From: Candidatus Babeliales bacterium
Lineage (GTDB): Bacteria > Babelota > Babeliae > Babelales > JABCYS01
Direction: 5' to 3'
NCBI GenBank assembly: GCA_016929235.1
Contig: JAFGJD010000002.1
Span: 1 to 55,103 of the forward strand
Length of the DNA stretch: 55,103 bases
This document shows positions 6,001 to 12,000 of this stretch, one piece after another. Position 1 is the first letter of the stretch. Every line of letters starts with the position of its first letter. The position numbers are program-made.

Positions 6001-9000
6001 GCCCCAGCACAACAGGGTTCATGGTGGTGGTAAAAGACCATTAAAAATAACGTTCATCCGTAGCATGATGGGTACAATGCACCAGTATCCGTCATGCTTT
6101 TTTTGTACCAGAGATGATATGAATAGCCACCTTAGTTCGTAGCCGCTGAATCGTTACCACACACAAAGTATACGGCTTATCAAATACTAATAATGCCTGA
6201 TCACCCACAAAGGAACCGAGCTCCAGCCATCCCGCACGCTCCATCTCCGACTGATAAAACTCAACCACATCCTGATATGGTAATTTACTTGTATATGATA
6301 ACTCATGGGTATCAAGGATAGGATCATTGAGGCGTGAGGCCCCAACTAAGGCATCAATTAAGACCGGGACATCAGAAAGCTTTGCTTCCTGAACCGTCAC
6401 ATCACGAATAACAACAGTTTTTTTTTGAGAGCCACACGAACTGATGCTTGCCAGTATCCCTAGATACAACAGCATGCGCAGATACATGGACCCCTCCTTG
6501 GCTTGAATTATTCAGCAGCCTGTTCTATTGCCGCTTCAGGAGCCTCTTGTGCAACTTCTACTTGATCTCGTGCCACGATCTTTTCTTTCACACGACCTGC
6601 CTTACCAACGCGATCACGAAGGTAGTACAGTTTTGCTCTGCAGACATCACCCTTGCGTTTGAGAGTGATTGAATCGATGACAGGAGAATAAAAAGGATAG
6701 ATACGCTCTACAGGAACACCGTTTGCTCCGATTTTTCGGACAGTAAACGTAGAGGATGCACCATTATGCTTAATACTGATGACATCGCCTTCAAAAGCCT
6801 GGAGTCGTTCTTTATTTCCTTCTTTGATGCGCTGCGATACAACAATGCGATCACCGGCAGCAAACTGAGGGAAATCTCGCTTGTATGCTCCGAGGTCACG
6901 AATAGTTTCTTTGGTAAAATGTCCTGCTTTCATGAAGCCTATCCTTTTGAGAATGTCTCTGAAATCTCTACGATTTGCTATCTTGCCTATTTACTATACT
7001 GAAAAATTGGTACTCTGCCAATCTCATATCCGCTTGCGATTCCACCCAAGCCAGCGGTCAAAAATAACCGCTACTGCCGAACGCACAGACAAATGATTAA
7101 ATTCTGTAAAACCCGCTACCGGCAGCAATAGATAGTCACTTGAGGCAACAACCTCCGGTGCCAACCCCCTTCCAGTTCCAAATACAAGGAGAACTGGCCG
7201 CTCCTGAGACCAAACATCACCTTGGTCATAGTAGGTAATGAGCGATGGATGATCAACTTCTCGTGCCGATGTTGCTATGATCAGAGGCTTCTTTCCTTCT
7301 CTTGCCTCAATCTCCATAAGCACTTCTGATAGATTATTTTTAAGCGCAACCGATGCCAGAGCCTCTGCTCGTTGGGCATTGTAAGTTACTCCCTTACCCT
7401 CTTGCCAGAAGTCGAGCAGCGTCTGTGCTATCTGCTGCTGATCCTTTAATGGAGAAACTAAAAAGTATCCATCAAGACCGTATGTCCTTGCTGAACGAGC
7501 AATATCATGAATATCCAACGATGTAATCGAGGTTGTCCCCACCCGGTCCTGGTCAACAATCACATCACTATGCATTAATACAGCGTAGTGAGATGGAATG
7601 CATGATTTTCCTAAATTCTTTTGATGCTCGGTCATGGGACTAGTACGAAACCAGTCAAAGTGCTCCTTGATCGTCTTATAAGCTGCCTGACTTTCTCGCC
7701 ATTTTTGAAGCTCAGCATGGTTACCTGAGAGCACCACATCCGGCACCTTTTTACCGCGCCATTCCACTGGTTCAGTGAATTCTGGATAATCAACAAATGG
7801 CCCAGAAAATGAATCCTGCTCAACCGATTCTTTACGACCGATTACACCCGGAATATGTCGTAGCAATCCTTCCAAGAACAACATAGCTGGGATATCTCCG
7901 CCCATAACCACAAAGTCACCAACCGATATAACTAAGTCGGCATACTCCTGTTCCACGCGAGCATCCATACCCTCATAACGGGAGCTTGCAAGGATAACGT
8001 GATCATAGGACTGGATCTTTTTAGCAGTTGCTTCAAGGAGAGGTTGGTCAAGTTTTTTACCCTGTGGCGAAAAGAAAATACGAAACGATTTGCCATGCTT
8101 CTTATCCTGTGACGCAATTGCATCCTCTACAACACGAGGCTTAATCAACATGCCTGACCCATGCCCACAGGTAGGAGCATCGATACGCTCCTTTGGCTTT
8201 ACAAACGAAAAATAGCTCGTGACGTCAAACGAAACGAGCTTCTTTTCTTGAGCTTTTTTAACGAGACTTGTGGCAAGGAATGGACCGAATATCTCTGGGA
8301 AAACGGTCAGAATTGATATGTTCATGCACCCTTGGCATATTTCTTTTGGAGCTTCTTGACGGCATCGCTTGCCTGGGCGCCCTTAGCAATCCATTCCTGA
8401 ATACGATCTTTTTCAAACTTCACAAATGTACCAGTCAACGCTTCATAGGTTCCAAGATTGTCAATGTATTTCCCGTCACGGCTTTGGCGCGAGTCCACAG
8501 CCACGATACGATACACAGGTGCCTTTTTCTTACCAAAGCGAGCAAGACGAATTTTTACTGCCATGCAGAGAGATCCTTATATTGATTCAAAAACTAAATT
8601 TTAGGGAATCCTTTGTTATTCCTGAAAAGTTTAGCATATTGCTGACTTTGTTCAAATCGAGCAAGCATACGGTCAATATCACTCACCGTCACCCCTGCCT
8701 GCCGGGCAACCTCACGCTTACGTGAATTGGTCAATTTTCTATGGTCCATTTGCTCGGCCGGGTCCATCGCTTCAATAATTGCCTTGAAGATCTTCATCTC
8801 CTCTTCACCCCGCTTGATGACCTCAGGCGACAATGCATCCTTGGGAAGCCCGGGCATATACTTAAGCACCTTGCTCAAAGAACCCATCTTGGAGATCATA
8901 TTCATCTGATTTACAAAATCCTTAAGTGTCAGTTTTCCAGACGATGGCTGGTCCAAATGAGGCTGTGGCGGCGTCTCTTGTTTTTTTGTACGTGAAAAAA

Positions 9001-12000
9001 TCTTAGAAAGCTTACTAAGCATTGCATATCCTTGTATCATTATATCGATTGAATCGTCCGTTCAGTATAAGGAACTTTCTATTCATCAGCAACGCGCTAT
9101 TTTACAGATAAGCCGCAAATGAGTACATTTTCGTAGAAACGGAATAAGACCCCATCGCAAGGTTGATAACCCTATGAGTAAAAAAGCAGAACCGATCAAC
9201 ATTGATAAGCCCAAAGTTCTTCTTGTTGGAATACAAGCTCCTTATAATAAAACAAAGTATATAGATTCATACTTTGCTGAGTTTCTTAATCTTGCAAAAA
9301 CCAATCAACTGGAATGGGTCGATGTTTATTTCACCAAAATCAGATCCATTGACGCAAGTACCTTCCTTACTAAAGGCAAATTAGAAGAGATCACTAAACT
9401 GTGTAATGAGCATAATATAGATCACGTCGTTATCTCAGAACCGCTTACAGCGCAACAGGCACGCAACCTCACAGAATTATTTAGCGCAAAGGTCTTTGAT
9501 CGCACACAATTAATTCTCGAAATTTTTGAAAAGGCTGCGCTATCCGCCGAAGGGAAAATTCAGGTCGAGATCGCATTTCTCCAGTACCAAAAATCACGAC
9601 TTGCAGGCCATGGAATCCATATGTCTCAACAGGCTGGTGGGATTGGAACGAGGGGTCTTGGTGAAACCGCTAAAGAGAAAGAATCACGTCATATTGAAGA
9701 ACATATTTTAAAACTAAAAAAGAAATTGCATCAGCTCGAACTGACAAGAGAAACACAACGCAAACAAAGATTGGCAAACCGAATCCCAAACATCTGCCTA
9801 ATCGGATATACCAACGCAGGCAAATCAACCATTCTGAATGCGCTCACCAAGAGCCATGTTCTAGCTGAAGACAAGCTCTTTGCAACTCTTGATACCACAA
9901 CTCGTGAGCTCTTCATCAATGGTGTAAAAAAAGGTGTTATCTCAGATACCGTTGGTTTCATACAACAGCTTCCCACTCGATTGATCGAGGCATTTAAGTC
10001 AACGCTCTCAGAACTTCAATATGCAGATCTTCTTCTCCATGTCATTGATCTCTCAGATCTAAATTGGGAATCACATATCAAGATCGTACACGACATACTC
10101 AATGACCTTAATGTACATAAAGATATTCTGTACGTCTTTAATAAGGTAGATAAAACAGAAGATCTAGAAGCACTGAAACCGGCTCTCAATCCTTATCGTC
10201 CTCAGGTGCTTGTCTCCGCATCAAGCAAGGATGGGCTCGCGGCACTCAAAACATATCTTTCATTTTGGACGCCAGAGCGCTAGTACAACATATGCGACCC
10301 CCTTGTTAAAAAGCTGTTTTACTCATAGGCTAAGAGCAAAACAGACGCATCTTCAAGGAGCTTGTCATGCTACACCAAATCATCATTCTCCTCACACCTC
10401 TTAAAATATACGCATGGCTTATTACCGCGCTTGCGTTCATGGTTGCTGAGCTTACAACTCCAGGTCTCTTTTTCTTTCTCGCATTCGGCGCCGGATCATG
10501 CATTGGTGCACTCTTGACATGGCATGGATCCCCATTCACTACCCAAGCATCAGGTGCGCTCATCAGCTCACTGATCAGTGTATGGATCCTGCGAAAACTG
10601 TTTGCGCAACATATCAGTGCCAAGCAGCATGTGCGAACAAATTATGAGGCTCTATCCGGCCAAACTGGAATTGTTACCAAAACAATCCAACCGCATCAAA
10701 GTGGATTAGTTAAAACAAAAGGTGAAGTATGGCCAGCAAAATCAGAAACCAACGACTCCATTGCGTCGGAAACCATCGTCTCCGTTTCTCGTATTGTAGG
10801 AAATCATATTATTGTTAAGCCATTGCTACTTCTTTTTGCATGTTCTTCGCTAGGCTCATTACAAGGCGTCGTTACAGACTATTTTACTAAACCCGATGGT
10901 GAGATAATGACTGATGATGAAGTAATAGAAGCATGCTGCAATCCGTCCTATCACCTGCATCATCCAATAAGTCGCATAGAGCGCCTTGCTGAAGCAGATC
11001 GCAACTGGGCGAATCGCCACTACAACGGAGCCACATGCTACTTCTTTACAACTTCAGGTACAAGAGTAAGAGAAGGCGAATTTGATTTTCAAACAACAAT
11101 GGAAGAAATAGATGCTCCTGGTATTGCTGATACATTATTTTTGAGACCTTTTGATGGATTGTCTAATACGCTATACAGGAATGAGGAGGTAGGCAATATG
11201 GTAGCTTCCCAGGATGCTGCGAACTGTATCCCATACATAAAAGCGATATGCGCCATGCGATCAAGAAGTGCAGTATCTCCTACTAATTCTGACGATAGAA
11301 TTGCCAAAGTGAAGGGAAAGAGTGTCACATTAGCCAAAGATTGCCCAGCAGGGACAGATTACCAAGTAGATGCACATTTGGTAGATTTTTCAAACTGGAT
11401 TGCGCTTTCTGAACGGTTTAAATTTGCTGCCGCACATGGTTGCATTACACAAAGATTCCAATTCTCCCCCCTGGAGCATAACTACGAGCTAATGAATCCA
11501 GAATTATACCCTCGCCTTTCTGCTGAAGACTTTAAGAAGGAAATCTATGCCAAAGTTCTTCATAGACGGATAAAAAGAATTGGAATTACAACTTTGATAG
11601 CACTAGCAGCCGCATATGGTTTTAAAAAATTATATACCGCTATATTCACACGCAAGCCAGGGGCTGCTCAAAAACTTGCCGAAAATAAGACTCAATCATC
11701 TCATGAACATAAATGTACTTCAGAGGAGCTATTATGATCGTCGAAGGATTCATCATCTTTTTTATATGCCTCGTATTGTTTGTTATGCTCACGATTTCGC
11801 GTGCAACCTATCTGGTCCAACAATCTGAGGTCATAGTCGTTGAGCGTCTCGGGAGATTTCATTCTCTATTAACGCCCGGGCTTCATTTTGTCGTACCATT
11901 CATTGATCTACCACGTTCAACAATGTGGACCATGATCAAGCCAACATCGGACAATCACTGGTACCGCTATTATAAAAACGTATCGCGCATTGATCTTCGT

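What a model noticed while it worked through the whole genome (the two positions that open the first line are those of the whole stretch)
8594..9022. SRP reduced to a stand-alone Ffh M-domain; no SRP GTPases, no SRP RNA
At the conserved ffh-rpsP-trmD-rplS position this genome encodes only a 142-aa protein (g00715): the first ~10 residues of Ffh (MLSKLSKIF, cf. MFDFLSKKF of full-length relatives) joined in frame to the linker and M (signal-peptide/SRP-RNA-binding) domain; the whole NG GTPase domain (~290 residues) is deleted. The 99%-complete genome has no FtsY, no other SRP54-type GTPase and no SRP (4.5S) RNA. The orphan M-domain is conserved (77% identical 147-aa ortholog; further 135-146-aa proteins of the same build in metagenomes) while its SRP-RNA-binding motifs are altered here, so it is a retained, repurposed remnant and not part of a canonical SRP.
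Evidence so far: pfam.tsv: g00715 SRP_SPB 1-89/91, E 1e-23, nothing else; 150 nt to the divergent hflX, no NG remnant. PF00448 six-frame search of the genome: best 11 bits; RF00169: none at E<=1; nhmmer/blastn with the 3 relatives' SRP RNAs and a fuzzy core-motif search: none. All 3 same-family genomes have Ffh 422-443 aa + FtsY + SRP RNA; 240 of 261 Babelales reach the PF00448 cut-off; 15 of 16 genomes of another family (f3) lack it and 4 of 4 of those tested also lack SRP_SPB; 5 more SRP54-less genomes have no SRP_SPB, so G000 is the only species genome searched with M-only. Syntenic sites (rpsB-dnaX for the RNA; ffh locus) lie inside contigs C3 and C8; the RNA site now holds tRNA-Ser and a CPT-family gene [...]
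(Added by a program. Inside this text positions count along the whole contig: contig position 1 is position 1 of the stretch shown here. "Call 12" and the like, gene names such as g00115 and contig names such as C1 are that model's own, and its searches are not shown. The text may have been shortened before it was handed on; [...] marks where a part breaks off. The agent that wrote the report below was given it as the finding of a first reader that could run no searches.)

Follow-up and report, generated by a model that had tools for sequence, protein, structure and literature searches.

The report
Bacterial SRP shrunk to one domain
A small intracellular bacterium has lost the receptor, the RNA and the GTPase half of the near-universal signal recognition particle but keeps, under selection, only its signal-binding domain, the same reduction previously described in mitochondria, where such a domain sits at the ribosome's exit.

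Summary
Confirmed and extended. ORF 8594-9022(-) is a 142-aa Ffh with the NG GTPase deleted: a short N-terminal helix (best match Ffh αN1), a linker, and an intact M domain, at the ffh-rpsP locus of a Babelota (Dependentiae) genome. FtsY and SRP RNA were not found, even with lineage-specific models, and both their syntenic sites are intact inside long contigs. A relative from another study has the same short gene beside rpsP with pN/pS about 0.08. Fifteen database proteins share the build; 14 have lost the RNA-binding SM and/or GXG residue (101 of 107 other short hits keep both), as RNA-less plastid and mitochondrial Ffh do, while groove residues stay. Their N-helix is basic like FtsY's lipid-binding αN1. 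The closest known thing is mitochondrial MAP67/mL105, a stand-alone M domain at the mitoribosome exit. Best reading (0.55): an RNA- and GTP-free ribosome-exit chaperone/tether for membrane proteins; function untested. New: the last helix's DNA hides a conserved promoter-like site for rpsP-trmD-rplS, which may bias deletions to spare the 3' end, and SRP GTPases were lost in at least three separate Babelota lineages. Genomic context is known for only 2 of 15 short forms.

The parts
8594..9022 (-). Short ffh: 142-aa αN1-helix + linker + M-domain protein (P0001)
8987..9022 (-). N-terminal amphipathic, basic helix (residues 1-12), best match Ffh αN1; proposed membrane anchor
   Evidence: PSSM 12.9 bits, shuffle p=0.004, vs -5.9 bits for the G-M linker; 13.0 vs 7.1 bits Ffh vs FtsY αN1; helix 3-9 at pLDDT<50
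8936..8986 (-). Low-complexity linker replacing ~310 residues of NG domain and G-M linker; differs by an in-frame 5-residue indel from P0002
   Evidence: pLDDT<50
8618..8935 (-). M domain (signal groove, finger loop, helix-turn-helix, C-terminal helix)
   Evidence: SRP_SPB 30-128; VIA Z 13.0, rmsd 2.4, 93 aligned to 2xxa_C; Z 9.2-9.9 to mitoribosomal chains 6z1p_AT, 8a22_Ub, 9i05_AI
8765..8770 (-). Degenerate SM RNA-binding motif (Ala85-Met86)
   Evidence: Ser in 86 of 87 full-length Ffh; motif named in PMC8321541 supp. fig. S5B
8693..8713 (-). Degenerate RNA-binding helix and GXG motif (Glu104 for Arg, Gln108 for Gly)
   Evidence: Arg 85 of 87, Gly 87 of 87 in full-length Ffh
8628..8655 (-). 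Promoter-like element inside the codons of the last helix (TTGAAC-16 nt-TAAACT with TG before), 63 nt upstream of rpsP
   Evidence: four-fold site 97% T (n=65) vs next 59%, median 39% of 88 columns; kept as a non-coding remnant in SRP-less G171; 8 of 12 consensus matches, below the scanner's threshold; activity not tested
9029..9092 (-). Shine-Dalgarno-like AAGGA 6 nt before the ATG and promoter-like TTGCTG-17 nt-TATACT
   Evidence: read by eye; not reported by the scan
8322..8564 (-). rpsP (S16); follows ffh in 68 of 68 full-length loci with enough flank
7024..8325 (-). trmD fused to a second SPOUT methyltransferase domain
6508..6933 (-). rplS (L19)
9174..10283 (+). hflX, divergent; also divergent to full-length ffh in 5 of 16 loci with enough flank
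619..2187 (-). yidC insertase (candidate downstream partner; no C-terminal tail extension)

Best explanation
The gene arose from ffh by an in-frame internal deletion of the NG domain (shown by synteny and by the retained αN1 and M parts) in a lineage that also lost FtsY and the 4.5S RNA (shown as far as a 10-contig assembly allows). The protein is still under selection (shown) and no longer binds SRP RNA (strongly inferred from the motifs). Most likely it works like mitochondrial mL105/MAP67: the M domain sits at the 50S tunnel exit through its C-terminal helix, shields the first transmembrane segment of a nascent membrane protein in its groove, and the basic amphipathic N-helix, freed from the N domain, does what FtsY's αN1 did and holds the complex near the membrane, where SecYEG or YidC take the chain without any GTP cycle (all inferred, none tested).
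For: Selection: of 26 listed differences to the X2 relative in codons 87-142, 18 lie in unchanged codons and 5 codons change; pN 0.045, pS 0.57; in codons 87-120, outside the promoter-like element, pN 0.05, pS 0.88. Face-specific loss: S385 kept in 86/87 full-length vs 3/16 short, G408 87/87 vs 2/16, R404 85/87 vs 6/16, K389 81/87 vs 1/16, while D335, F336, P357, G358, G410 are kept in all short forms covering them (L038 numbering); both S and G kept in 1 of 15 αN1+M proteins vs 101 of 107 other short hits. Same replacements as RNA-less plastid SRP54 (VM/AM and DSG). M fold intact and matching mL105 chains. mL105 lacks NG, inserts its C-terminal helix in the tunnel (PMC7326499) and contacts a membrane density assigned to OXA1L (PMC9576764). 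Isolated E. coli M domain co-migrates with 50S and selectively affects membrane-protein synthesis (PMC2921155). Net charge of first 14 residues: short forms +2.4 (n=12), FtsY +2.6 (n=30), Ffh +0.1 (n=84), p=7e-8; FtsY αN1 is the lipid-binding helix (PMC5533587). SecA, SecY, YidC and trigger factor are present.
Against: No functional or expression data. 16 of 16 f3 genomes and G171 have no M domain at all, so Babelota can live without it. E. coli M domain is stabilised by 4.5S RNA and that 50S co-migration experiment had ffs co-expressed. No compensating change seen in YidC's C-terminus (9 of 22 YidC tails recovered) or in uL23/uL29 (18 genomes), whereas Polytomella mL105 is held by new uL24/uL29 extensions. 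Hydrophobic moment of the N-helix is not higher than in Ffh as a group (0.55 vs 0.51, p=0.21) and the charge shift partly reflects lysine-rich linker residues entering the 14-residue window; related sequences are not independent. The 23S rRNA is not in the assembly, so the rRNA docking site could not be checked. Conservation of the C-terminal helix is confounded by the embedded promoter-like site.
Confidence: 0.55

Rival explanations
1. Soluble quality-control factor, not a tether: it binds hydrophobic nascent or released chains (holdase), or slows their synthesis, without delivering them; the N-helix is only the leftover translation start.
For: Overexpressed E. coli M domain selectively lowers membrane-protein synthesis (PMC2921155); groove residues kept; the N-helix is poorly conserved in sequence (4-31 bits on the Ffh profile) and any deletion keeping the start codon would keep some of it.
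Against: All 15 complete short forms keep a 10-15-residue amphipathic stretch and it is consistently more basic than in Ffh.
Confidence: 0.2
2. The M domain has switched nucleic-acid partner: a fixed ribosomal protein bound to rRNA, or a regulator of the rpsP-trmD-rplS operon, with no role in signal recognition.
For: The domain stays basic (net +3 to +9); the Arg-Lys pair at 401-402 is mostly kept (12/16 and 15/16); the gene is operonic with ribosomal genes; helix-turn-helix fold.
Against: The residues lost are exactly the RNA-facing ones, and the finger-loop/groove positions are kept.
Confidence: 0.12
3. A decaying remnant kept only because its 3' end carries the promoter of rpsP-trmD-rplS and its 5' end the shared regulatory region with hflX; the protein is irrelevant.
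For: Promoter-like element in the last-helix codons is strongly constrained at synonymous sites; no listed differences over 8603-8662 in the X2 relative; SRP-less G171 keeps just this ~60-nt piece, with no start codon in frame.
Against: Synonymous sites are near saturation while amino acids are conserved in codons 87-120, outside the element; 89% identity over the M domain with an open frame and an in-frame linker indel; many divergent proteins keep the whole ~105-residue domain.
Confidence: 0.08
4. Artefact: mis-assembly deleted the NG domain, or ftsY/ffs lie on missing contigs.
For: 10-contig metagenome bin that lacks the 23S rRNA; run X1 may be the bin's own source.
Against: A 24,678-nt Logan contig of X1 spans 7400-10400 with 0 differences and no joints; a second study (X2) holds a ~88%-identical relative with the same short gene next to rpsP; ftsY's neighbours are ~100 nt apart in the middle of the 322-kb contig C2; the ffs site lies inside C3; the RNA-binding residues are lost, which no assembly error would cause.
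Confidence: 0.03

Closest known systems
MAP67 / mL105 (mitochondrial stand-alone Ffh M-domain; PMC8321541, PMC7326499, PMC9576764; PDB 6z1p_AT, 8a22_Ub)
   Same: M domain without N and G domains, proposed to arise by internal deletion of Ffh; no SRP RNA; same fold (Z 9.2-9.9); host-enclosed, reduced genetic system.
   Different: Bacterial, encoded at the native ffh locus as the only SRP component rather than a nuclear paralogue; still ~50% identical to Babelota Ffh but only 8-18% to mL105 chains, so an independent, more recent origin; keeps an αN1-derived helix; ribosome binding not shown.
RNA-less cpSRP54 of seed plants/Chlamydomonas and mtFfh (PMC8321541 supp. fig. S5B, PMC11427828)
   Same: Substituted SM and GXG motifs where ffs is lost; same replacements (VM or AM; D at the first G) occur among the short forms.
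   Different: Those keep the NG GTPase and an FtsY partner, and need both; this protein has neither.
Canonical bacterial SRP (Ffh + 4.5S RNA + FtsY)
   Same: Orthologous gene position and M-domain sequence.
   Different: NG domain, RNA-binding residues, RNA and receptor all missing.
FtsY αN1 membrane-targeting helix (PMC5533587)
   Same: Homologous, basic amphipathic N-terminal helix with equal mean charge.
   Different: Sequence origin here is more likely Ffh (10 of 15 score higher on Ffh, 5 on FtsY); lipid binding untested.

Membership tests
Canonical Ffh/SRP54 | NG GTPase domain (PF00448/PF02881) | tested here: not met
Canonical Ffh/SRP54 | M domain (PF02978) and fold | tested here: met
Canonical Ffh/SRP54 | SM and GXG RNA-binding motifs | tested here: not met
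   AM and QAG
Canonical bacterial SRP pathway | FtsY receptor in the genome | tested here: not met
   assembly not closed
Canonical bacterial SRP pathway | 4.5S/SRP RNA in the genome | tested here: not met
   assembly not closed; large SRP RNA model RF01854 not run
MAP67/mL105 | Stand-alone M domain lacking N and G | tested here: met
MAP67/mL105 | Eukaryotic, mitochondrion-targeted, descent from a mitochondrial Ffh paralogue | tested here: not met
   bacterial chromosomal gene; ~50% identical to Babelota Ffh, only E 0.08 to 6z1p_AT
MAP67/mL105 | Stable binding at the ribosome tunnel exit | not testable with these tools
   needs cryo-EM or co-sedimentation; 23S rRNA absent from the assembly
RNA-less cpSRP54/mtFfh | Mutated SM/GXG with ffs loss | tested here: met
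RNA-less cpSRP54/mtFfh | Full-length GTPase working with an FtsY | tested here: not met

The most novel reading that the evidence does not exclude
Babelota have repeatedly converted Ffh into a one-protein, GTP-free, RNA-free targeting device: an FtsY-like lipid-binding helix wired straight to the signal-binding M domain, sitting on the ribosome as a bacterial counterpart of mitoribosomal mL105. The phylum would then hold living stages of SRP dismantling (full SRP, RNA-motif decay, M-only, promoter-only scar, complete loss) that replay the mitochondrial route.
Probability: 0.4. Interest if true: 0.9.

Novelty: new variant of a known kind. Interest (0 to 1): 0.8.

Why it matters
SRP is described as present in all domains of life, and its GTPase handshake with FtsY as the core of the mechanism. 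A bacterium that keeps only the cargo-binding domain under selection says which SRP function is the last to go, and gives a recent, still alignable model for how mitochondrial mL105/MAP67 arose. It is directly testable: a 142-aa soluble protein can be assayed for ribosome, signal-peptide and lipid binding and for partial rescue of SRP depletion in laboratory E. coli. The repeated loss of SRP in Babelota also offers natural comparisons for how membrane proteins are inserted without SRP.

Tried and rejected
Complex prediction of the short protein with the YidC membrane domain: no verdict (score 0.00), not evidence either way. RNA runs: no RNA holder listed; two metatranscriptomes gave no contig on the gene, uninformative. 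Context for other short forms: the metagenome scan with P0001 gave 19 loci, all full-length or contig-cut Ffh; genome scan with P0018 gave 11 loci, all full-length; viral scan gave none; an alignment-based genome scan could not be run. Phylum search with the short-form profile showed no other short form among the 150 best of 258 matches listed; 5 weak outliers were contig ends, a split frame or full-length. Single versus repeated origin of the short forms is unresolved: 3-4 positions in free trees, but one clade is not rejected (p-AU 0.344 and 0.328). N-terminus from the G-M linker: rejected. Compensation by a YidC tail or uL23/uL29 extensions: none seen. Promoter scan found no minus-strand site. 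ESM Atlas returned only SRP_SPB clusters of unknown completeness, scores under 0.9. Earlier scan notes: nothing by sequence or words. Paper searches returned nothing; others gave no listing that describes this protein.
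Full report
OBSERVATION. The window is contig C8 of an 808,977-base, 10-contig genome (completeness 99.27%). 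Named records of the same order are titled Babeliales/Dependentiae (matched to G-handle proteins); the phylum is described as strictly intracellular in protists (PMC12172432, passages seen). ORF 8594-9022(-) encodes 142 aa whose only Pfam match is SRP_SPB at residues 30-128. It lies just upstream of rpsP-trmD-rplS; rpsP follows full-length ffh in 68 of 68 loci with enough flank, so this is the ffh locus. An AAGGA 6 nt before the ATG and a promoter-like pair further up were read by eye; the scan did not report them.

IS THE REST OF SRP GONE? PF00448 peaks at 11.3 bits, and Babelota-specific Ffh and FtsY profiles over all 8603 frames find only the M gene. RF00169 and a model built from 33 Babelota SRP RNAs find nothing at E<=10, while the control genome scores 80.9 bits. 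Synteny is the stronger argument. In relatives ftsY sits between a conserved gene and a prmC-like gene (name recalled from sequence, not from a call); in G000 those two are ~100 nt apart at C2:235053-234954, in the middle of a 322-kb contig. The RNA gene sits between rpsB/tRNA-Ser and dnaX in most of 33 loci; in G000 that interval on C3 holds tRNA-Ser and one ORF, no SRP RNA. The assembly is not closed and lacks the 23S rRNA, so absence is very likely, not proven. SecA, SecY, YidC and trigger factor are present.

DISTRIBUTION. Of 261 phylum genomes, 240 have an SRP GTPase and 231 an M domain; 129 of 151 sampled have the RNA. Family f3 lacks GTPases and M domain in 16 of 16 and the RNA in 15 of 15 sampled; G171 (93% complete) lacks all three. 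A ribosomal-protein tree of 18 genomes rejects one clade for G000, three f3 genomes and G171 (p-AU 7.6e-7): at least three separate losses. G000 is the only one of the 21 GTPase-less genomes with an M domain (one of the 21 is unlisted and identified by elimination).

NOT AN ARTEFACT, NOT A PSEUDOGENE. A 24,678-nt contig from run X1 (possibly the bin's source) spans 7400-10400 with no difference or joint. Run X2, another study, has a 1395-nt contig covering rpsP and the M domain with 67 differences in 544 nt; its length and its loose end, which I translated by hand, match P0002 (147 aa, 77% identical), and other X2 contigs cover trmD and hflX. Only 40 of 167 difference rows were shown; the 26 in codons 87-142 account for all five amino-acid changes there, giving pN 0.045 and pS 0.57, and pN 0.05, pS 0.88 for codons 87-120.

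A FAMILY OF THE SAME BUILD. Searches returned 15 complete proteins of 135-164 aa with an αN1-like start, a 15-45-residue linker and an M domain (P0001-4, 7, 12, 16-19, 33, 55, 152, 187, 191). I picked them by eye from the short hits, seeing the whole sequence, so the grouping was not blind. Two start with unmistakable Ffh N-termini (30-31 bits); the αN1 profile beats the G-M linker profile in 12 of 13 tested, for P0001 12.9 vs -5.9 bits. The RNA face is lost selectively (87 full-length vs 16 short or partial): S385 86/87 vs 3/16, G408 87/87 vs 2/16, R404 85/87 vs 6/16, K389 81/87 vs 1/16, A381 79/87 vs 3/15, while D335, F336, P357, G358 and G410 are unchanged. Both S and G survive in 1 of 15 (P0055, whose C-terminus is aberrant) against 101 of 107 other short hits. 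PMC8321541 (sections 10 and 11 read whole, other passages, and supplement passages) reports that these two motifs are mutated wherever plastids or mitochondria lost the RNA; its alignment shows VM/AM and DSG, replacements that recur here. Genomic context is known only for P0001 and P0002. Whether the short forms arose once or several times is open.

STRUCTURE AND PRECEDENT. The model (mean pLDDT 74, residues 2-27 under 50) is an M domain: Z 13.0 to Ffh 2xxa_C and 9.2-9.9 to chains of Tetrahymena, Polytomella and Toxoplasma mitoribosomes. PMC8321541 describes MAP67, a mitochondrial M-domain-only family proposed to derive from Ffh by internal deletion of N and G, and equates it with mL105. mL105 binds the tunnel exit with its C-terminal helix inside (PMC7326499, passages) and contacts a membrane density assigned to OXA1L (PMC9576764, passages; PMC11742926, passages). 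Isolated E. coli M domain co-migrates with 50S and limits membrane-protein synthesis, but is stabilised by 4.5S RNA (PMC2921155, abstract and passages). In plastids both G and M domains are needed (PMC11427828, passages). The first 14 residues of the short forms carry +2.4 net charge, like Babelota FtsY (+2.6) and unlike Ffh (+0.1); the hydrophobic moment does not differ. FtsY αN1 is its lipid-binding helix (PMC5533587, passages).

MECHANISM. Shown: internal deletion, loss of partners, selection, loss of RNA-facing residues. Inferred (0.55): an mL105-like exit-site chaperone whose N-helix anchors at the membrane, passing nascent transmembrane segments to SecYEG or YidC without GTP. Against: no functional data; f3 and G171 do without it; no YidC tail (9 of 22 tails recovered) or uL23/uL29 change. 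Rivals: soluble holdase or translation brake (0.2), new nucleic-acid partner (0.12), promoter shelter (0.08), artefact (0.03).

A SECOND LAYER. The codons of the last helix hide a promoter-like element, TTGAAC-16-TGnTAAACT, 63 nt before rpsP. In 70 full-length ffh genes the four-fold site giving the first T of the -10 box is 97% T, against 59% for the next and 39% median of 88 such columns. G171 keeps only this piece between hflX and rpsP, and four f3 genomes show similar TTn-16/17-TGnTAnACT sites there (by eye). It scores 8 of 12, below the scanner's threshold, and is untested. It explains why deletions would spare the 3' end and confounds conservation of that helix, but not the selection on codons 87-120.

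NOVELTY. Ten full-text searches listed no paper on a bacterial stand-alone M domain or on SRP loss in Babelota; PMC12172432 does not mention SRP in its main text. PMC5115805, PMC3620526 and PMC8230904 (passages) added nothing decisive; PMC8546722 (S. mutans survives SRP loss) was seen as a listing only. The library lacks most subscription papers, and bioRxiv supplements were closed, so a prior mention in a supplement cannot be excluded. That some other reduced prokaryotes lack SRP is recalled, not checked. Verdict: not a member of canonical SRP or of MAP67 by descent, but a convergent bacterial variant of the MAP67/mL105 kind. Interest 0.8.

Noticed in passing
window 8628-8655 (-) and 70 Babelota ffh genes: Promoter-like element embedded in the codons of Ffh's last helix; probably shapes the phylum's FEQSxQ(Y/F)(A/V)K signature.
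   Followed up: partly
L176:1744-1866 (-) (G171): SRP-less genome keeps only a ~20-codon scar of ffh, the promoter-bearing piece, between hflX and rpsP.
   Followed up: partly
G042-G057 (family f3): Whole family without Ffh, FtsY (16 of 16) or SRP RNA (15 of 15 sampled), independent of G000.
   Followed up: partly
G000 C5:36932-37165 (-): uL24 is 78 aa and lacks the C-terminal CxxC...CxxC arm found in most Babelota; SRP-bearing G040 is similarly short.
   Followed up: partly
window 7024-8325 (-): TrmD fused to a second SPOUT methyltransferase (PF09936); same length in relatives.
   Followed up: no
window 10367-11737 (+): NfeD-like N-terminus (PF01957 at 94-152) runs in frame into ~300 aa with no Pfam match, upstream of an SPFH/band-7 gene; may be two genes joined by a lost stop.
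   Followed up: no
window 4127-5507 (-): Two adjacent ORFs with signal-peptide-like starts and coiled-coil-like composition, not annotated.
   Followed up: no
P0055: αN1 joined directly to the G-M linker with RNA motifs intact and an aberrant C-terminus: a recent deletion or an assembly chimera.
   Followed up: no
L173:7164-7870 (+) (G000 C3): AT-rich-start ORF with a P-loop at the former SRP RNA site, between tRNA-Ser and dnaX; possibly inserted at the tRNA.
   Followed up: no
G000 C6 end: 16S, tRNA-Ile and tRNA-Ala end the contig; 23S rRNA is not assembled.
   Followed up: no
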